Positions 6,402-59,794 of a DNA stretch of 64,000 bases are shown here, one piece after another; positions within the stretch are counted from its first letter, which is position 1; each line of letters opens with the position of its first letter. The position numbers were made by a program, and so were the translations under genes. This stretch comes from a virus: IMG/VR virus record IMGVR_UViG_3300042691_019786; one strand, written 5' to 3'. The notes beneath the pieces are model-generated. The model was given only the letters and a program-made list of their open reading frames with translations, was not told the DNA's origin and searched no databases.

Positions 6402-6755
6402 TTATTTTTGTTTTTTAATTACTAAATAATGATGATAACCTTTATCACCGTCTGTCGCATAGAAAGCATATTTTAATTCGCCATTTTTAACCCTTTCAGC
6501 TATTTTAGCTTTTTCTTCAGCTTTAGCTTCAACAAATATTCTTTCATACTTGTTTTCAGCCTTTTTTACTTTAACAGTTTCTTCTGCTTCAGTTTTAACT
6601 TCTGGTTTAATTGGTTGTTTAGCAACAACTTTTGGTTTAGTTTCCTCAACGACAATAGGCTTTTCTTCCGCAACCACTCTTTTTTTGGGTTCAGATTTAA
6701 CTATTGGTTTTGGTTGTGCTTTTTTCCTTTCAATACTCATAGGACAAATGTACAA
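6402..6755 (-). CDS. Hypothetical Lys/Glu/Pro-rich protein
   Basis: ORF within the operon; true start probably MSIERK. Confidence 0.55.
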   Translation of the reverse strand: MYICPMSIERKKAQPKPIVKSEPKKRVVAEEKPIVVEETKPKVVAKQPIKPEVKTEAEETVKVKKAENKYERIFVEAKAEEKAKIAERVKNGELKYAFYATDGDKGYHHYLVIKKQK

Positions 6756-6781
6756 ACAAAAAATTAATAAAACAAATTAAA

Positions 6782-7288
6782 TTACGATTTTCTTACAAAA
6801 TATTTAAAACGATATTTGAAACCGTTTTCCTCATAGATAGCGCTTTCGTAGATATTAGTCCACTCTTCTTCATTAAAACCTTCAAGGTATGTATCACCTT
6901 CAACATCTGATAAAACCTCTGTTAAATACAATTTACGTGCAATTGGGAATAGTTCTTTGTAGATTTCACCACCACCAATAACAAAATGTTCTTCAATTCC
7001 TAAATTAAAAGAAGACATTTCATATGCTCGTTTAATCATATCTAAATTATTCATAACTATAGCGCCTTCAGCTTGGTAATTTTCATCTCTAGTTATGATG
7101 ATGTTTTCTCTGTTGGGTAATGGTCTAAATTTTTCTGGTAGTGATTCCCAACACTTACGACCCATGTATACACGTTTTCCAGATGTTAAGTTTTTAAAAT
7201 TCTTTAAATCATCTGGAATATGCCATGGCAATTCATTATTCTTACCAATGACCATGTTGGTAGACGCTGCTACTATAATACTTAACAT
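6782..7288 (-). CDS. folA: Dihydrofolate reductase
   Basis: IG....LPWH, MGRK.WESLP..RPLPNR, IGGGEIY and GDTY motifs. Confidence 0.95.
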   Translation of the reverse strand: MLSIIVAASTNMVIGKNNELPWHIPDDLKNFKNLTSGKRVYMGRKCWESLPEKFRPLPNRENIIITRDENYQAEGAIVMNNLDMIKRAYEMSSFNLGIEEHFVIGGGEIYKELFPIARKLYLTEVLSDVEGDTYLEGFNEEEWTNIYESAIYEENGFKYRFKYFVRKS

Positions 7289-21155: not shown

Positions 21156-21156
21156 G

Positions 21157-21228
21157 TACAGCGTGTTGGAATCGAACCAACGTCCCCCACTTCTATAGAG
21201 TGGACTCTACCACTGGAGCTAACGCTGT
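21157..21228 (-). tRNA. Atypical tRNA, anticodon ATA
   Basis: Cloverleaf; ccact-ctATAga-agtgg; no nucleotide 26. Confidence 0.55.
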
Positions 21229-24370: not shown

Positions 24371-24496
24371 TCGGAAGGGTTAGACTCGAACTAACACTCT
24401 GCGGTTCCGATTAGCGTTTTATTTGCTGAACTTAATCTTTAAAACAGATTAAACTTTTTGCAATACCGCTGCCTCTACCAATTGGGCTACCTCCCG
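24371..24496 (-). ncRNA. tRNA body whose anticodon loop is replaced by the TCAGCAA stem
   Basis: Normal acceptor, D and T arms; TTAATCT/AGATTAA-GTTCAGCAA inside the gcggt/accgc stem. Confidence 0.65.
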
Positions 24497-28259: not shown

Positions 28260-28331
28260 TTATATTCGGTGGGAACACTATATCATCCGCTCATAGAGTC
28301 TGTCAATAATATAGGTTCATCACCTCACTTG

Positions 28332-28402
28332 TATTGGGTACGGGATTCGAACCCGTGTCAACCGCTTCACTGCGGCCATCCTATCCACTAGACGAACCCA
28401 AC
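28332..28402 (-). pseudogene. tRNA-like gene (Glu/Asp-type body) with a 6-nt anticodon loop
   Basis: gccgc-agtgaa-gcggt; other arms intact. Confidence 0.55.
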
Positions 28403-48529: not shown

Positions 48530-49654
48530 TTACAACATTTTATATAACGTTTTATCGTCATAGTTAAACATATATTCTTCAACTGATGCTATTTTGTAAT
48601 CTTTCAACCCAAAATACAACCCAGTAAAGTTTTTTAAATCATATTTCTCACAAACTTCAAACACAGCAGCAGCAAACTTTTTTTGTTCTGGTTTTGTTAC
48701 GTTTTTTGGTTTACGCAACTTTAATTCATCCCATACAACATTCAATTTTGCAACCAACGCATCGTAAGACTCTTTAAGACGATTTAATTCTTCTGTTCTT
48801 TCTGGGAAAGTAGCAGCAAATTCTTCTATCTCGTTAGTTTTTACAATAGTTAATATGTTGTGTTCAGCAGTTTTACCTTTCAAGTGGTGTACCGCAACAT
48901 ATGCTGGATTTTTCACTTTAACACGATTGTCATTACCATCACGTACAACATAACCTTCTTCAGACCATGGCATACCTTCAAATGTTTTCAACAAGTGACC
49001 AACATTTTTTGCGTTTAAATCAAAAGATTTTACCAATGGTATATCCAATGATACCGCAGTCATTTCCAAGTCTCTCCCAGACAACTCAACAAGTGTTTTT
49101 CTGTTTCTAACAGCCAACAAAGTCGCTGATGATTCACCATGTGGTTTTACTACTATGTTATATGGTGTAGTTAACTCAAACACATAGATATAATCATAAT
49201 TTAACAAACATGCATTGAATGTGTATTTGTTGTTAACAGTATCCCAAAACAATTCGTTAAATTTAGTACCATTTTTGTTGTTAACTTCACCTTCACCGTT
49301 TGCAGTACCAGTAGTACCAGCATACCATGTCATGTCGTGCCAATCATAATACACTTGTATCATAGTACCATCCAATTTTTCAAGTACTTGTGCAGTATTC
49401 CAATCTATTTTAGCAGCGTTACCTTCTTCAGAGTTGAAGAATTTTCTAAACGCCAAAGACATTACGTTCCAAGTACCTTTTTCAAGGATGATTCCACGAC
49501 AATCTTGCATCTCTGGCAATGACATAAGTGTTGGTGACACTAATTGGTCATACTTCAAGAGTATTTTGTGTTCATACTCTCTAGTTTTTAAAGAAAAGTC
49601 TTTGATTGTTTTTTCTAAACCGTGTGTTCTTAAATATTTTTGTATAGCTAACAT
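48530..49654 (-). CDS. Rnl1-family (T4 RnlA-like) RNA ligase
   Basis: CRG, KFFN, EKLDG, FEL, EGYV and VKVK...Y motifs. Confidence 0.9.
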   Translation of the reverse strand: MLAIQKYLRTHGLEKTIKDFSLKTREYEHKILLKYDQLVSPTLMSLPEMQDCRGIILEKGTWNVMSLAFRKFFNSEEGNAAKIDWNTAQVLEKLDGTMIQVYYDWHDMTWYAGTTGTANGEGEVNNKNGTKFNELFWDTVNNKYTFNACLLNYDYIYVFELTTPYNIVVKPHGESSATLLAVRNRKTLVELSGRDLEMTAVSLDIPLVKSFDLNAKNVGHLLKTFEGMPWSEEGYVVRDGNDNRVKVKNPAYVAVHHLKGKTAEHNILTIVKTNEIEEFAATFPERTEELNRLKESYDALVAKLNVVWDELKLRKPKNVTKPEQKKFAAAVFEVCEKYDLKNFTGLYFGLKDYKIASVEEYMFNYDDKTLYKML

Positions 49655-50108: not shown

Positions 50109-50756
50109 TTACTTGCAATAATAACTTGAATCAATTCTGATAGTAACACCATATTTCCTAGATAACGCATCAAATCTAGCGTCTAACTTCTTGTCAAAAC
50201 CAAAACTTTCTTCCAACTCGCCCTTTTCATCAACAAAATAAACAATGTATGAATTATCATTCCATGATTTTCTAATAAACTCAACTTTTAACTCACCTTT
50301 AAAGTATTCATCAATAACTCTAGAAACATCTTCTTTGATTGCTTTAGCGTCAACGTTATATTTGTATTGAATACCCATATCATTCATTGATTCCGATACT
50401 AGTTTGTTGTATTTACCAAATCTACCATTAACCAATACTTCCATTGGTTGCCATTTAACAACATGTGGTTCGTTATGTTCTATATTACCAGAATAATCAG
50501 CTAGATATGTGAAACCCATGAACCCATCTTTATGGATAGCAAAAATAAGTCTTAGATTAGTGACATCTAATCCAGTTTCTTCTTTTGTTTCACGTATCGC
50601 TGTGGTTTTAGGGTCACCATTGTCTTCTGGGTCCATTTTTCCTCCAGGTAATCCGAAATCATTATGGTCATCTTTTCTAGAAACACCTAAAATGTAACCT
50701 TCTGGATTAATTAGCACAACTTGTGCTGAAACTTTAATATCCTTATCAATCTTCAT
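50109..50756 (-). CDS. Nudix hydrolase
   Basis: LPGG.....AIRETKEETGL. Confidence 0.88.
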   Translation of the reverse strand: MKIDKDIKVSAQVVLINPEGYILGVSRKDDHNDFGLPGGKMDPEDNGDPKTTAIRETKEETGLDVTNLRLIFAIHKDGFMGFTYLADYSGNIEHNEPHVVKWQPMEVLVNGRFGKYNKLVSESMNDMGIQYKYNVDAKAIKEDVSRVIDEYFKGELKVEFIRKSWNDNSYIVYFVDEKGELEESFGFDKKLDARFDALSRKYGVTIRIDSSYYCK

Positions 50757-50951: not shown

Positions 50952-51848
50952 TCATTGTTTTTTTATTTCAGTGACAATACCACTTATCATAAATGATTTA
51001 ATGTCTTGCCATTTTGTTATTTGATTGCTCATAACTGGTTTACCACCATCTGGGTTAATCGCAATAGTTATATGTGGAATTTCATTTTTTGATGGATAAC
51101 CGCTAACTCTTACAGCCATAGCTTTATCTGAAAGACCTAACGCTTCAACTGTCAATGTAACTTCTTTACCTAAATCAGTTTTATCTTTAAGTTCACCCAA
51201 ATTTATTGTCATATGATGTGTTATCACAGTCCAATCTTTTGGTATCCATATACCAAGTTTATCCAATAACGTACCTTTGGATTGTCCATCCAACAAAACA
51301 CAAGAATATAACACATCTGATTGTTTATACATATCTTTAGATTCAACTATTTTTTTAACAGTCAATGGCCCAACAGATTTATGTGAATCCATCATCATTT
51401 TTATTTTATCTAATGGAACTCCATGTGTATTTGACTCAGCTAATTGCTCAGCAGTCAAGTTACGAGTGCCAACATCATGTATTTGTATGTTGTTATCATC
51501 AAATCCCATTTCCAACGCTGCAACAACATATGCTTTAGCCTCATTGGCTTTGATATTCGTGTTATCTATTACAACTGGACTAATACCATCTTTCATAGAT
51601 TTGATTGCGTTAGATAAGTTCTTAGAGTGCATTCTAGACAAATCTTTAAAGTCTCCAGACTCTATCATTTTAGCAAAGAAACCTCTGTAGTCACCAGTAG
51701 CTTCAATTAAATCATCTGTTGAATGAATTATCCCTTCACCCATTAGTGATTTCGCCATTGTTGATTTTCCAGCCCCAGGAATACCACGCATCACAAACAA
51801 TTTTTGTGATGGTCTAGTTATTTCGATATTTAAAACATTTTTTTTCAT
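50952..51848 (-). CDS. P-loop polynucleotide kinase fused to a 2H cyclic phosphodiesterase
   Basis: GIPGAGKST, DNTN and HGVP motifs; HMTI and HITI. Confidence 0.82.
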   Translation of the reverse strand: MKKNVLNIEITRPSQKLFVMRGIPGAGKSTMAKSLMGEGIIHSTDDLIEATGDYRGFFAKMIESGDFKDLSRMHSKNLSNAIKSMKDGISPVVIDNTNIKANEAKAYVVAALEMGFDDNNIQIHDVGTRNLTAEQLAESNTHGVPLDKIKMMMDSHKSVGPLTVKKIVESKDMYKQSDVLYSCVLLDGQSKGTLLDKLGIWIPKDWTVITHHMTINLGELKDKTDLGKEVTLTVEALGLSDKAMAVRVSGYPSKNEIPHITIAINPDGGKPVMSNQITKWQDIKSFMISGIVTEIKKQ

Positions 51849-53148: not shown

Positions 53149-53218
53149 TACCGACTGTGAGGTTCGAACTCACTTAACCATCCATATGAGGGACGGTCCT
53201 TTTCCACTAAGTGTCGGC
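53149..53218 (-). tRNA. tRNA-CAT (Met/Ile2) with a shortened D arm
   Basis: cgtcc-ctCATat-ggatg. Confidence 0.7.
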
Positions 53219-53224
53219 ATTTTG

Positions 53225-53326
53225 CTCACCCACTAGGATTCGAACCTAGGACCTAACGGTTAACACTCCTTGTATGAACTTACTTATCATACCTAGCCGT
53301 TTGCTCTACCACTGAGCTATGGGTGA
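53225..53326 (-). tRNA. tRNA-Asn(GTT) with a 30-nt insert (53265-53294) in the anticodon loop
   Basis: aacgg-ct[insert]GTTaa-ccgtt; the rest is canonical. Confidence 0.8.
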
Positions 53327-53336
53327 ATATTTGTTG

Positions 53337-53410
53337 CTCTCCCTCTAGGATTCGAACCTAGGACCCACGCATTAACAGTGCGTTGCTCTAACCTACTGAG
53401 CTAAAGGAGA
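53337..53410 (-). tRNA. tRNA-Asn(GTT)
   Basis: acgca-ctGTTaa-tgcgt. Confidence 0.92.
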
Positions 53411-53420
53411 ATATATTTTG

Positions 53421-53497
53421 TACAGAAGGTGAGATTCGAACTCACATGTGACCAACTACCCTTTCTACAAGATATAAGCTTGAGGGGATACATCTGC
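53421..53497 (-). tRNA. Non-canonical tRNA-Ile(TAT) lacking a normal D arm
   Basis: Acceptor and T arm present; caag-ctTATat-cttg; D-loop-like TAGTTGGT lies 3' of the anticodon arm. Confidence 0.6.
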
Positions 53498-53503
53498 ATC
53501 TTG

Positions 53504-53575
53504 TTGTCTAACCCAGACTCGAACTGGAAATACTGCCGTATCAGAGCAGCGTGATAACCATTTCACCATTAGACA
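53504..53575 (-). tRNA. tRNA-Ile(GAT)
   Basis: ctgct-ctGATac-ggcag. Confidence 0.88.
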
Positions 53576-53586
53576 AAATTGTGGAA

Positions 53587-53775
53587 TTACTTCCACTGTG
53601 TTTTTCGGTAGTGTTTCCAAGTTTTATACATTCTAACTTGATAACTCATTTTGTTTCCATAGAAACGAATACCTTCATCCCAATAAATTGGGTAGAAATC
53701 ATTGATTAACATGATTCGGTATTGTCTACCATTTTGTGCTTTGTTCAGTTTTGCTCTGTTTACGTTTTTACTCAT
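53587..53775 (-). CDS. Small basic protein ending WKHYRKTQWK
   Basis: Start MSKNVN; preceded by a uORF and hairpin. Confidence 0.65.
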   Translation of the reverse strand: MSKNVNRAKLNKAQNGRQYRIMLINDFYPIYWDEGIRFYGNKMSYQVRMYKTWKHYRKTQWK

Positions 53776-53845
53776 AATGTTGTGAGTCTGTGAATAGCAG
53801 ACCTTACAACATATCAAATTCTTTTTTCATAAAATTAAATTTTAG

Positions 53846-54150: not shown

Positions 54151-54729
54151 TTATTTATTCTTACCAGCGTATGTTTCAGTTTGTGAATGACAATTAGGAC
54201 ATAAAAAACGTAAATTTTCTATTCTATTATCATTATTTATACCGTTAATATGGTCTATTTGTAATATTAGTTTACCACCCATCCATTCACCAGTATTACC
54301 ACAACTTACACATTTATACTCTAATAAATTACTTCTTAACACTCTATTCTTTAAATGACCAGAATTATATTGTGAATTTTCACAAAATATTTCAGAATCA
54401 CTATATTTTACCTTAGTAACGTTTCTTCTAGGGTTACCTTTATATAAATCATTATCTATTCCATATAAATCAAAATACCTTTTTAACGTTCTATAATTAC
54501 CAGCTTTTAGTGTTAAACCCATTTTTTCTAACACTTCAGCTTTAGAATTTGAAGATTCTATTAAAGGTTTTAATTCTTCAAAACTCCATTTATGATAATA
54601 TTTTTTAGGTTTAAGACCATATTTATCTGCCCAATATCTTATAGTCGTTAATGATTTATTAGTTTTTTTACTTATTTGTCTTAAAGATAAACCTTCTTTA
54701 AGAAGTTTTTCTAATTCTATTTTTTCCAT
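54151..54729 (-). mobile_element. HTH-HNH homing endonuclease
   Basis: C..CG...DHING...DNR.ENLR.LCPNCH. Confidence 0.9.
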
Positions 54730-55001: not shown

Positions 55002-55034
55002 AAAAAAAGCCTTGATTTGTGGTCAAGGCTTTTT
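55002..55034 (-). terminator. Attenuator terminator 4
   Basis: AAAAAGCCTTGA-ccacaaa-TCAAGGCTTTTTTT; GCCTTGACC also pairs with GGTCAAGGT in the leader. Confidence 0.85.
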
Positions 55035-55059: not shown

Positions 55060-55155
55060 CTATTCTATGATGTTATTTAACATACCTTGACCGTTATGGA
55101 AACTATTGCGTCTCCAATTATTAATCGAAATCATATGTATGTTAATTGTTCTCAT
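55060..55155 (-). CDS. Leader peptide 4 MRTINIHMISINNWRRNSFHNGQGMLNNIIE
   Basis: Rich in R,I,N,H,M,S,W; downstream tRNAs are His, Trp, Ser, Ile, Ile, Asn, Asn, CAT, Arg, Arg, Ser. Confidence 0.88.
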   Translation of the reverse strand: MRTINIHMISINNWRRNSFHNGQGMLNNIIE

Positions 55156-57112: not shown

Positions 57113-58243
57113 TCAAAAAATAAATATATCTAGATAAAGTTTTTTAAAATTATCAGTTTCTAGTCTTTGTATTTCTTTACCTAATTCTGGTCCTTGTTTT
57201 AACCCCATCTTTGTCATTAGGTCTGAACCATTAACCGTTAATTTAAATAATAAAAATGTATCTATAATCTTTACATCAATACCACTTAATTGAGCAAATC
57301 TAGTTATTTGTTCTGCTGTTACACCAGATGTCTTTTCAGCTTTTTTAAGCGTTACAGCTGTATCAATCGACAAATTCAATAGACTAATCAAAAATGTAAT
57401 AGCTCTTATTTCATCAATTGAGTATTTTAATTTGTTCAATTGTTTTGTTAATAAATCAACTTTATTATTCTTTAACAACATTGCTAAAACAATAATTATA
57501 TCATTATCTTCAATGAAATTTTTATTAACATTAACATCTTTAAAAACCCAATCAAATAAATTGTATTTGTCAATCATTTTTAAAAACGATTTTACAGATT
57601 TTGCTGATTTGATACCTTTCAAAAACTCATCTCTGATTCTTTCACCAGATATACCTTCCAAACTAGCATCTTTTTGCAATGCAGCGTCAACTGATGGGTC
57701 TAATTCACTACCAAATCTACCAGCAAATCTAATTGCTCTTAATATACGTAATCTATCTTCACCAAATCTATCTTCAGCTGCACCTACAGTCCTTACAACA
57801 CTGTTTTTAAGGTCTTCTATACCATCAACCAAATCAACAACTTCTGACGTGTCTATATCGTAAAATAATGCGTTGATTGTTAAGTCACGTCTTTTAACGT
57901 CACCTACTATATCTGTAAAACTAACACCATCTGGTCTTCTACCGCTAGATAAGTCTTCCCTAAAAGTTGCGATTTCGTATTCACCCATATCAGTAAAGAC
58001 GTTGATAACACCAAATGCTTTACCAGTTGGTAAAGTTCTAAAACCACCTTTAGCCATTATGTCTTCCACTTGGTCTGGGATAGCATCGGTTGCCAAATCG
58101 TAATCTTTAGGTGTTTTACCTAACAACGCATCACGCACTGCACCACCTACAACATATAGGTTAAAACCATTTTGCTTAAAAACATCTTTTATTTGTAAAA
58201 TGTCTTTTGGTATTGGCATATCAAATATAATTCTCTTTTCCAT
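57113..58243 (-). CDS. cca: CCA-adding tRNA nucleotidyltransferase (class II)
   Basis: VGGAVRD...DYD, RRDLTINAL, EDRLRILRAIRF and ERI..E motifs. Confidence 0.92.
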   Translation of the reverse strand: MEKRIIFDMPIPKDILQIKDVFKQNGFNLYVVGGAVRDALLGKTPKDYDLATDAIPDQVEDIMAKGGFRTLPTGKAFGVINVFTDMGEYEIATFREDLSSGRRPDGVSFTDIVGDVKRRDLTINALFYDIDTSEVVDLVDGIEDLKNSVVRTVGAAEDRFGEDRLRILRAIRFAGRFGSELDPSVDAALQKDASLEGISGERIRDEFLKGIKSAKSVKSFLKMIDKYNLFDWVFKDVNVNKNFIEDNDIIIVLAMLLKNNKVDLLTKQLNKLKYSIDEIRAITFLISLLNLSIDTAVTLKKAEKTSGVTAEQITRFAQLSGIDVKIIDTFLLFKLTVNGSDLMTKMGLKQGPELGKEIQRLETDNFKKLYLDIFIF

Positions 58244-59671: not shown

Positions 59672-59723
59672 AACTTTTTTTTAATAAATATATCAATAAT
59701 AATGCCAAAGTAAACATTATTTG

Positions 59724-59794
59724 TGGTCTTAGAGGGAATCGAACCCTCACTATCGGTTTTAGAGACCGTTACGCTGCCGTTACATCATAAGACC
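59724..59794 (-). tRNA. Amber suppressor tRNA (CTA)
   Basis: Cloverleaf; acggt-ctCTAaa-accga; own promoter motif at about 59806. Confidence 0.88.

What the first reader, a model, noticed from the sequence alone, without database searches (positions are those of the whole stretch)
53421..53497. Topologically rearranged tRNA-Ile(UAU)
After the acceptor stem there is no D hairpin. An extended anticodon arm (CCCT..AGGG enclosing caag-ctTATat-cttg) is followed by a D-loop-like TAGTTGGT in the variable position. UAU would read AUA without TilS. Leader 4 contains ATA codons, which is consistent with the tRNA being functional.
Basis: partly seen in the sequence, partly recalled or inferred. Interest (0 to 1): 0.7.

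Follow-up and report, generated by a model that had tools for sequence, protein, structure and literature searches.

The report
Phage isoleucine tRNA with swapped core
This 77-base gene in a giant freshwater phage is a conserved transfer RNA, most likely for the isoleucine codon AUA, in which the D-stem strand and D-loop lie after the anticodon arm instead of before it; I found this non-cloverleaf wiring in no paper, and standard tRNA finders miss it.

Summary
The element has a 7-bp acceptor stem, U8-A9, no D hairpin, a UAU anticodon arm enclosed by a 3-bp outer helix, a D-loop-like UAGUUGGU, a perfect T arm and A73. ARAGORN and the Rfam tRNA model do not call it.

It is not a decayed gene. 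The identical 77 nt occurs in four other viral contigs with unrelated flanks. I collected 88 distinct elements with this layout from 72 loci (71 viral-contig loci plus the window). All four helices covary: 98% of cells are paired and 16-19 of 20-21 pairs show compensatory changes. RNAalifold finds the same fold unaided, and the tertiary 15-48 pair covaries as G-C or A-U.

The layout equals a canonical tRNA with segments 10-21 and 22-44 exchanged. Anticodons are only Ile (UAU, GAU), CAU or Arg. Arg members always carry A20, the ArgRS determinant, and Ile/CAU members always carry A73.

The most likely function is a working tRNA-Ile(UAU) that reads AUA without TilS. AUA makes up 29% of Ile codons in the window. 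Expression and charging are untested.

This scan has already reported the same family on other genomes. I found no published description.

The parts
53421..53497 (-). Whole 77-nt swapped-core tRNA gene (anticodon UAU)
   Evidence: Sequence. CM R1 scores it at 59 bits. It is 100% identical in L001, L003, L004 and L005, and identity ends within 2-4 nt of both ends.
53491..53497 (-). Acceptor stem 5' strand, GCAGAUG (positions 1-7)
   Evidence: It pairs with 53422-53428. All 7 pairs covary in the family. U6.U67 is also kept in L147 and L160.
53489..53490 (-). U8 A9
   Evidence: Invariant in all alignments.
53485..53487 (-). CCC, the equivalent of the D-stem 3' strand (canonical 23-25), here placed before the anticodon arm
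   Evidence: It pairs with GGG at 53459-53461. The helix appears as CCC/GGG, ACC/GGU, CUC/GAG, CAC/GUG, CAG/CUG, CGA/UCG, CGU/ACG and CGG/CCG in relatives.
53467..53483 (-). Anticodon arm: U.U plus CAAG/CUUG stem and loop CUUAUAU; anticodon UAU at 53474-53476
   Evidence: The loop has U33 and A37. All 4 Watson-Crick pairs covary in the subfamily, and the U.U at 27-43 is invariant there.
53462..53466 (-). AGAAA bulge joining the anticodon stem to the relocated D-stem strand
   Evidence: It is NGAAA in all 16 subfamily members and is replaced by AUAC or UAA-type bulges in other subfamilies.
53459..53461 (-). GGG, the equivalent of the D-stem 5' strand (canonical 10-12), here placed after the anticodon arm
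   Evidence: Covariation with 53485-53487.
53451..53458 (-). UAGUUGGU, the relocated D-loop (U13, A14, G15, G18, G19 and U20 equivalents)
   Evidence: UA-R...GG is conserved in all 88 elements. The R covaries with the base before the T stem.
53446..53450 (-). CACAU linker in the place of variable-loop positions 45-48; the last U is the 48 equivalent
   Evidence: The 15-48 pair is G-C or A-U in 86 of 88 elements. This copy is the only G-U.
53429..53445 (-). T arm: GUGAG UUCGAAU CUCAC
   Evidence: A perfect 5-bp stem with a canonical T loop; 2-3 of its pairs covary.
53421..53428 (-). Acceptor 3' strand CUUCUGU plus discriminator A73 (53421); no encoded CCA
   Evidence: The discriminator is A in 52 of 52 Ile/CAU-type members. 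A CCA-adding enzyme gene lies at 57113-58243.
55060..55155 (-). Leader-4 ORF upstream of this tRNA array (context only)
   Evidence: It translates to MRTINIHMISINNWRRNSFHNGQGMLNNIIE with 2 ATA codons. A terminator-like hairpin lies at 55004-55034.

Best explanation
The element is a functional elongator tRNA gene of a giant phage, most likely tRNA-Ile(UAU) decoding AUA. Its core is wired differently from the cloverleaf. The strand runs acceptor 1-7, U8 A9, then the equivalent of 22-44 (D-stem 3' strand, position 26, the whole anticodon arm), then the equivalent of 10-21 (D-stem 5' strand and D-loop with G18 G19), then a short linker in place of 45-48, then the T arm and the acceptor 3' strand. 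The same nucleotides still pair as in a canonical tRNA: a D-stem of 3 bp stacked on the anticodon stem, U8-A14, R15-Y48, and G18G19 available for the T loop. The molecule should therefore still fold into an L shape with the normal anticodon-to-CCA distance. It would be cut from the array transcript by RNase P and 3' nucleases, receive CCA from the phage or host enzyme, be charged by host IleRS and read AUA. Shown here: the sequence, its conservation, the covariation of all four helices and of the 15-48 pair, and isotype-specific identity nucleotides. Inferred: the L-shaped 3D fold, co-transcription with the array, processing, charging with Ile and decoding. A plausible origin, also inferred, is tandem duplication of region 10-44 followed by loss of the first 10-21 copy and the last 22-44 copy.
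For: (1) The identical 77 nt occurs in L001, L003, L004 and L005 with unrelated flanks, and identity begins and ends at the predicted tRNA termini. (2) Alignment A1 (27 distinct sequences, not structure-fitted): 98.7% of cells paired, 16 of 20 pairs with compensatory changes, slid controls 26-51%. Only the acceptor and T stems were used to select these sequences. (3) The window's own subfamily, A4 (16 distinct, ungapped, selected without any pairing criterion): 98.1% paired, 17 of 20 compensatory, slid controls 33-42%. (4) RNAalifold predicts the same four helices unaided on A1 and A4. (5) The 15-48 tertiary pair, which was not part of the model, is GC 30, AU 7, GU 1 with none unpaired in A2, and AU or GC in 86 of 88 elements. 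(6) The 88 distinct elements in 72 loci carry only Ile (UAU 32, GAU 18), CAU (2) or Arg (36) anticodons. The base after G18G19 is A in 36 of 36 Arg members against 3 of 52 Ile/CAU members (Fisher p about 1e-21). A20 is the main ArgRS determinant (PMC9976931). The discriminator is A in 52 of 52 Ile/CAU members against 13 of 36 Arg members. (7) All loops keep U33 and R37. (8) Context: the gene sits between tRNA-Ile(GAU) and tRNA-Asn with 6- and 10-nt spacers. It is the only UAU anticodon among the window's tRNAs, and ATA is 28.7% of Ile codons, 22 per 1000. A CCA-adding enzyme gene lies nearby. (9) In L002 an Endonuclease VII gene plus a core-type swapped tRNA(UAU) has replaced the 5' 31 nt of a window-type copy at the same place in the array, so the two types behave as interchangeable alleles. 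(10) The E. coli translation machinery accepts a D-arm-less tRNA without adaptation (PMC11551756).
Against: There is no expression, processing, aminoacylation or decoding data. The single-sequence fold is no more stable than shuffles (z = 0). This copy has U6.U67, U27.U43 and the family's only G15.U48 and scores 59 bits against 83-106 for core members. Covariation cannot distinguish a mature swapped RNA from a hypothetical re-ordered one, because the same bases pair either way. An unmodified U34 could also read AUG. E. coli-type Ile determinants C4-G69 and C29-G41 are absent (sequence, compared with my recollection of the E. coli identity set, not checked in a paper here). Three CAU tRNAs in the window leave open that another AUA reader exists. 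Sequences in the counts are related, so the shuffle and Fisher figures overstate independence.
Confidence: 0.75

Rival explanations
1. It is a non-decoding tRNA mimic. Examples would be a decoy that absorbs host anticodon nucleases or other tRNA-targeting defences, or a sensor or regulator of the tRNA operon. It would keep tRNA-like features for recognition but would not be used on the ribosome.
For: The scaffold is non-canonical and is restricted to viral contigs by two genome-wide pattern scans. The window encodes a T4 Rnl1-type RNA ligase and a kinase/CPDase protein, the hallmarks of tRNA-repair conflict with anticodon nucleases. Canonical tRNA-Ile(GAU) and tRNA-Arg(UCU) often coexist with swapped versions in the same arrays.
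Against: Synthetase identity elements outside the anticodon loop are kept in an isotype-specific way: A20 in 36 of 36 Arg members and A73 in 52 of 52 Ile/CAU members. A pure nuclease decoy would not need these. The full acceptor/T minihelix, U33, R37 and the 15-48 pair are conserved. In the window the swapped gene is the only UAU anticodon, while AUA is common.
Confidence: 0.12
2. The gene is permuted only at the DNA or precursor level. The transcript would be cut and re-ligated, for example by the phage RNA ligase and kinase/CPDase, into a canonical-order tRNA, by analogy with the permuted tRNA genes of Cyanidioschyzon merolae (recalled from memory, not read here).
For: After the two segments are exchanged in silico, 27 of 27 sequences are called tRNA-Ile by ARAGORN. 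Covariation fits either order. RNA ligase and end-healing genes are present, and a neighbouring tRNA-Asn carries a 30-nt insert that needs some removal mechanism.
Against: The termini are already canonical, so this is not a circular permutation. Re-ordering would need three breaks and two ligations in a fixed order, and I know of no such mechanism. The bulge and linker lengths are conserved as if they were functional connectors. The un-swap test is only weakly specific, since 72% are still called when the moved segment is shuffled.
Confidence: 0.03
3. It is a working tRNA but does not deliver Ile strictly to AUA. It might be charged by another synthetase, or with unmodified U34 it might read both AUA and AUG.
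For: The same subfamily also carries CAU anticodons (3 of 16), whose identity (Met or lysidine-Ile) is unknown. UAU anticodons are rare in bacteria and need an adapted IleRS and ribosome in M. mobile (PMC3575796).
Against: UAU and GAU share the scaffold and the invariant A73. The anticodon is the main IleRS determinant (PMC9976931). A B. subtilis tilS deletion strain survives by AUA decoding without the canonical lysidine tRNA-Ile2 (PMC3919564).
Confidence: 0.07
4. It is a decayed tRNA pseudogene or a chance tRNA-like string.
For: It is not called by ARAGORN or by Rfam even at E <= 10. Fold energy z = 0. It has two stem mismatches.
Against: Conservation is 100% in other contigs with unrelated flanks. 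There are 88 distinct relatives with compensatory changes in every helix. Only one truncated remnant was seen (L002), and it is clearly distinguishable.
Confidence: 0.02

Closest known systems
Canonical bacterial and phage elongator tRNA (Rfam RF00005), specifically tRNA-Ile
   Same: A 7-bp acceptor stem, U8 and A9, a 5-bp anticodon stem with a 7-nt loop (U33, R37), a 5-bp T stem with a UUCGAAU loop, the A14-R15...G18G19 motif, R15-Y48 covariation, A73, no encoded CCA, and a position inside a tRNA array.
   Different: The linear order of the core differs: the 10-21 segment follows the anticodon arm instead of preceding it. There is therefore no D hairpin, and the D-stem is a long-range 3-bp helix enclosing the anticodon arm. 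RF00005 gives no hit for this copy at E <= 10 and only 33-39 bits for 3 of 11 relatives.
tRNA-Ile(UAU) of Mycoplasma mobile and of a B. subtilis tilS deletion strain (PMC3575796, PMC3919564)
   Same: A UAU anticodon that would read AUA without lysidine or TilS.
   Different: Those tRNAs are canonical cloverleaves in cellular genomes. This one is phage-encoded with a swapped core. Nothing is known about its U34 modification or the IleRS that charges it.
Mitochondrial D-arm-lacking tRNAs and the engineered mini HisT (PMC7609411, PMC11551756)
   Same: [quoted passage not shown]
   Different: Those have lost the D-arm and its G18G19/T-loop contact and are shorter (about 62 nt for mini HisT). Here the D-stem strand and D-loop are retained, relocated and under selection, and the length is a normal 77-83 nt.
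Permuted and split tRNA genes of Cyanidioschyzon merolae and archaea (from memory, not read here)
   Same: The parts of a tRNA are encoded in a non-standard order.
   Different: Those are circular permutations or separate genes that processing resolves into a canonical tRNA. Here the termini are canonical, and two internal segments are transposed within one continuous RNA.
Allo-tRNAs with 8/4 or 9/3 acceptor/T branches (PMC5389517, PMC7609411)
   Same: Non-canonical tRNAs found by metagenome mining, with UAU among the commonest anticodons of the 8/4 class.
   Different: Allo-tRNAs keep the cloverleaf order and have altered stem lengths and a long variable arm. This family has the 7/5 branch and a changed order of parts.

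Membership tests
Canonical tRNA (Rfam RF00005) | Score at or above the gathering threshold of 29 bits | tested here: not met
   No RF00005 hit on 53421-53497 at gathering or at E <= 10 on a 471-nt stretch. Only 3 of 11 relatives reach 33-39 bits.
Canonical tRNA (Rfam RF00005) | D-arm hairpin between position 9 and the anticodon arm | tested here: not met
   Only 5 nt (U CCC C) separate A9 from the anticodon stem. ARAGORN makes no call.
Canonical tRNA (Rfam RF00005) | Acceptor stem, T arm and anticodon arm with U33 and R37 | tested here: met
   Sequence and covariation of all three helices.
Canonical tRNA (Rfam RF00005) | Tertiary R15-Y48 (Levitt) pair and G18G19 | tested here: met
   At family level the pair is AU or GC in 86 of 88 elements, and GG is invariant. 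This copy has G.U.
   R1 scores 59 bits against 32 or less for ordinary tRNAs. The copy passes the strict grammar search. It belongs to a 16-member subfamily with 98.1% pairing.
TilS-independent tRNA-Ile(UAU) AUA decoder | Anticodon UAU with A37 and discriminator A73 | tested here: met
   Loop CUUAUAU, with A73 at 53421. A73 is found in 52 of 52 Ile/CAU-type members.
TilS-independent tRNA-Ile(UAU) AUA decoder | Aminoacylation by IleRS and decoding of AUA but not AUG | not testable with these tools
   This needs charging and translation assays.
Mitochondrial-type D-armless tRNA | Loss of the D-stem and D-loop, with a short connector only | tested here: not met
   A D-stem equivalent (covarying 3 bp) and a D-loop motif are present downstream of the anticodon arm.
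Permuted tRNA gene (C. merolae type) | 3' half encoded upstream of 5' half, with termini inside the tRNA body | tested here: not met
   The acceptor 5' and 3' strands are at the gene ends, and conservation stops there.
Allo-tRNA (8/4 or 9/3) | 12-bp acceptor branch split 8/4 or 9/3, with a long variable arm | tested here: not met
   The branch is 7 bp acceptor plus 5 bp T stem, and there is no variable-arm hairpin.

The most novel reading that the evidence does not exclude
The L-shaped adaptor can be encoded by a secondary structure other than the cloverleaf and still work in bacterial cytosolic translation. Large phages have evolved and spread (partly with homing endonucleases) a segment-swapped scaffold for Ile and Arg tRNAs. 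The changed D-region connectivity makes these tRNAs invisible or resistant to host tRNA-targeting defences or tRNA surveillance, while IleRS, ArgRS, EF-Tu and the ribosome still accept them.
Probability: 0.25. Interest if true: 0.92.

Novelty: new variant of a known kind. Interest (0 to 1): 0.8.

Why it matters
Textbooks and a recent paper (PMC11551756) hold that all bacterial-type cytosolic tRNAs are cloverleaves and that natural deviations are confined to mitochondria. A widespread, selected tRNA family with two core segments transposed would have several consequences. First, it would show that the strand connectivity of the tRNA core is not fixed. Second, it would explain apparent gaps (AUA, AGA and others) in phage tRNA sets, because the usual finders miss most members: ARAGORN finds 6 of 88, and RF00005 finds none for this copy. 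Third, it would offer natural scaffolds for orthogonal tRNA engineering. Fourth, it would make the question of what synthetases, RNase P, EF-Tu and the ribosome really require of the D region directly testable. If the rewiring serves to escape tRNA-directed host immunity, it would be a new counter-defence principle.

Tried and rejected
- The whole genome is not held, so no genome-wide tRNA set or tilS search was possible.
- Single-sequence RNAfold is uninformative (z = 0).
- GenBank phages contain no annotated relative. The only hit is an unannotated 642-kb uncultured phage, LR756502.1.
- Un-swap test: 27 of 27 sequences are called tRNA-Ile by ARAGORN after the segments are exchanged. However, 195 of 270 are still called when the moved segment is shuffled, and 0 of 27 when it is deleted. 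The test therefore shows mainly that spacing and order are restored, and I do not count it as strong evidence.
- Two genome-contig scans with subfamily patterns gave 0 hits. This does not exclude cellular copies of other subtypes.
- Five literature searches and two targeted readings found no description of this topology. Subscription-only papers are not covered.
- A reading as a mitochondrial-like D-armless tRNA is rejected, because the D segment is present.
- Pseudogene and chance readings are rejected.
- Not done: scoring un-swapped constructs with RF00005 (the tool reads stored loci only), 3D modelling of the RNA (no tool available), and assigning the CAU tRNAs to Met or Ile2.

Full report
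**What is there.** The window is AT-rich (31.7% GC) and carries about 37 tRNA genes, all on the minus strand. Earlier notes of this scan describe the genome as a giant uncultured freshwater phage. The candidate fills an otherwise empty 77-nt slot, 6 nt after tRNA-Ile(GAU) (53503-53575) and 10 nt before tRNA-Asn (53336-53410).

ARAGORN does not call it. Rfam's tRNA model gives no hit even at E <= 10 on a 471-nt stretch. Its fold energy equals that of shuffles (z = 0).

**It is conserved, and the conserved unit is exactly the tRNA.** A pattern scan of viral contigs found the identical 77 nt in L001, L003, L004 and L005. Aligned with the window, identity is 100% over the element, plus 2 nt upstream and 4 nt downstream, and the flanks beyond are unrelated.

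L002 holds only the 3' 46 nt of this sequence. Directly upstream lies a different, complete element of the same layout, preceded by an Endonuclease VII gene (Pfam E = 1.5e-24). This looks like a homing-type cassette that replaced the 5' part of the resident gene with its own allele.

**A large family with the same wiring.** Four further scans and a strict grammar search gave 88 distinct elements in 72 loci (71 viral-contig loci plus the window), from contigs up to 479 kb.

- On a MAFFT alignment of 27 sequences (A1), the four proposed helices are paired in 98.7% of cells. Sixteen of 20 pairs show compensatory changes, and every slid control drops to 26-51%. Only the acceptor and T stems had been used to pick these sequences.
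- The window's own 77-nt subfamily (A4) has 16 distinct members and aligns without gaps. Members were selected by a pattern with no pairing requirement. It gives 98.1% pairing, 17 of 20 compensatory pairs and slid controls of 33-42%.
- RNAalifold predicts exactly these helices on both alignments without input from me.
- The outer helix occurs as CCC/GGG, ACC/GGU, CUC/GAG, CAC/GUG, CAG/CUG, CGA/UCG, CGU/ACG and CGG/CCG.
- A covariance model built from A1 scores core members at 83-106 bits, this copy at 59 bits and ordinary tRNAs at 32 bits or less.

**How the wiring relates to a cloverleaf.** The order of parts is: acceptor 5' strand; U8 A9; one or two nucleotides; a 3-nt strand; one nucleotide; the anticodon arm; a 3-5-nt bulge; the complementary 3-nt strand; U-A-R-(N)-G-G; a linker; the T arm; the acceptor 3' strand.

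This is a canonical tRNA in which segment 10-21 (D-stem 5' strand plus D-loop) and segment 22-44 (D-stem 3' strand, position 26, anticodon arm, position 44) have changed places. In the canonical L shape, 43/44 is followed in the helical stack by position 10, residue 9 lies beside pairs 12-23 and 13-22, and 21 lies near 46-48. These are facts of established tRNA structure, recalled from memory. The three new junctions therefore join neighbours in space, but that geometric argument is my inference.

A direct test of tRNA-like tertiary structure is available. The R after UA (position 15) and the base just before the T stem (position 48) were not pairs in my model, yet they covary. The counts are G-C 30, A-U 7, G-U 1 and none unpaired in A2, and AU or GC in 86 of 88 elements. 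The window copy is the single G-U. Its nearest relative, L147, differs at 3 positions and has A-U.

Exchanging the two segments in silico makes ARAGORN of 27 as tRNA-Ile. The control weakens this result: 72% are still called when the moved segment is shuffled, and none when it is deleted.

**Evidence that these are working tRNAs of defined identity.** Across the 88 elements the anticodons are UAU 32, GAU 18, CAU 2, UCU 23, UCG 6, ACG 5 and CCU 2. That is Ile, the AUG/AUA box and Arg only, including in the three scans that left the anticodon free.

| Feature | Arg members | Ile/CAU members |
|---|---|---|
| Base after G18G19 (position 20) is A | 36 of 36 | 3 of 52 |
| Discriminator is A | 13 of 36 | 52 of 52 |

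A20 in the D loop is the main determinant for ArgRS (PMC9976931). A relocated D-loop that still carries the isotype-specific synthetase determinant is hard to explain unless these RNAs are aminoacylated. All loops keep U33 and a purine at 37.

In the window the swapped gene is the only UAU anticodon. ATA supplies 28.7% of Ile codons (22 per 1000), and AGA supplies 63% of Arg codons. The leader ORF ahead of this array contains 2 ATA codons. A CCA-adding enzyme gene (57113-58243) is nearby, which fits genes that lack an encoded CCA.

UAU-anticodon tRNA-Ile reading AUA without TilS is documented in Mycoplasma mobile and in a B. subtilis tilS deletion strain (PMC3575796, PMC3919564). The E. coli translation apparatus accepts a D-arm-less tRNA without adaptation (PMC11551756).

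**What remains open.** Nothing here shows transcription, processing, charging or decoding.

- This copy is among the more deviant members, with U6.U67 (shared with L147 and L160), the subfamily-wide U27.U43, and G15.U48.
- Covariation cannot exclude that the RNA is re-ordered after transcription, though three breaks and two ligations would be needed and the termini are already canonical.
- A decoy role against tRNA-targeting defences is conceivable. The window encodes a T4 Rnl1-type ligase and a kinase/CPDase repair protein, and canonical isoacceptors often coexist with swapped ones. The conserved A20 and A73 argue against a pure decoy.
- Why the wiring changed is unknown. Evasion of host nucleases or surveillance is speculation.

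**Comparison with known systems and novelty.** The element works like a tRNA-Ile but fails two defining features of the canonical family: the D hairpin and the RF00005 score. It is not a mitochondrial-type armless tRNA, because the D segment is retained. It is not a circularly permuted gene, because the termini are canonical. It is not an allo-tRNA, because the acceptor/T branch is 7/5.

Detection by standard tools is poor. ARAGORN finds 6 of 88 natively. RF00005 finds 3 of 11 relatives, at 33-39 bits. Two pattern scans of about 185,000 species genomes found none.

The 2020 review of non-canonical tRNAs has no hit for permuted, swap, rearrange, topolog or phage. A 2024 paper states that all known bacterial tRNAs are cloverleaves. 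My searches found no description.

Within this scan the family has been reported several times on other genomes. I reached the same reading independently. Those notes agree with it, including the restriction to Ile and Arg.

**Verdict.** This is a real, selected member of an apparently undescribed class of segment-swapped phage tRNAs, most likely a TilS-independent AUA decoder.

Noticed in passing
L002:6681-7210: An Endonuclease VII gene (6681-7082) plus a core-type swapped tRNA(UAU) (7084-7163) sits directly on a 46-nt 3' remnant of the window-type swapped tRNA (7165-7210). It looks like a homing cassette that replaces the resident allele. The window array also holds an HNH endonuclease gene (54151-54729).
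   Followed up: partly
window 53149-53218 (-): A further tRNA missed by ARAGORN: anticodon CAU, canonical order but only a 3-bp D stem and an A7.A66 mismatch. RF00005 scores it at 26.8 bits, below threshold. Its acceptor stem, GCCGAC, is shared with the swapped CAU element L129:5432-5507. Whether it is Met or lysidine-Ile is unknown.
   Followed up: partly
L025, L067, L097, L114 (88 nt); L019, L020, L022, L057, L109, L117 (88 nt); L082:827-918; L002:6526-6610: Canonical-order tRNAs with UAU or GAU anticodons but a long variable-arm hairpin, which is type-II-like and unusual for Ile. They may be related to allo-tRNAs, whose 8/4 class often carries UAU (PMC7609411).
   Followed up: no
window 48530-49654, 50952-51848, 57113-58243, 50109-50756 (all -): A tRNA maintenance gene set next to the arrays: T4 Rnl1-family RNA ligase, AAA_33 kinase plus tRNA-ligase CPDase domain, CCA-adding enzyme, and NUDIX hydrolase (Pfam).
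   Followed up: partly
window 24371-24496 (-) and 53225-53326 (-): Two RF00005 hits of 126 nt and 102 nt with large insertions in the anticodon-loop region. ARAGORN calls neither. The second is the tRNA-Asn mini-intron covered by another finding.
   Followed up: no
window 21156-21228, 28331-28402, 59723-59794 (all -): Odd anticodons called by ARAGORN: AUA (called 'Tyr'), a four-base GUGA anticodon, and CUA (an amber suppressor, labelled Pyl).
   Followed up: no
window 53581-53778 (-): A 63-codon ORF (MSKNVNRAKLNK...) lies between tRNA-Ser and tRNA-Ile(GAU). Its end overlaps a small hairpin followed by a T tract (53581-53596), just before tRNA-Ile(GAU). This may be an internal punctuation of the array.
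   Followed up: no
LR756502.1:390985-391051: The only GenBank phage record with a core-type swapped tRNA (83.8% identical to L038's) is an unannotated 642-kb uncultured phage.
   Followed up: no
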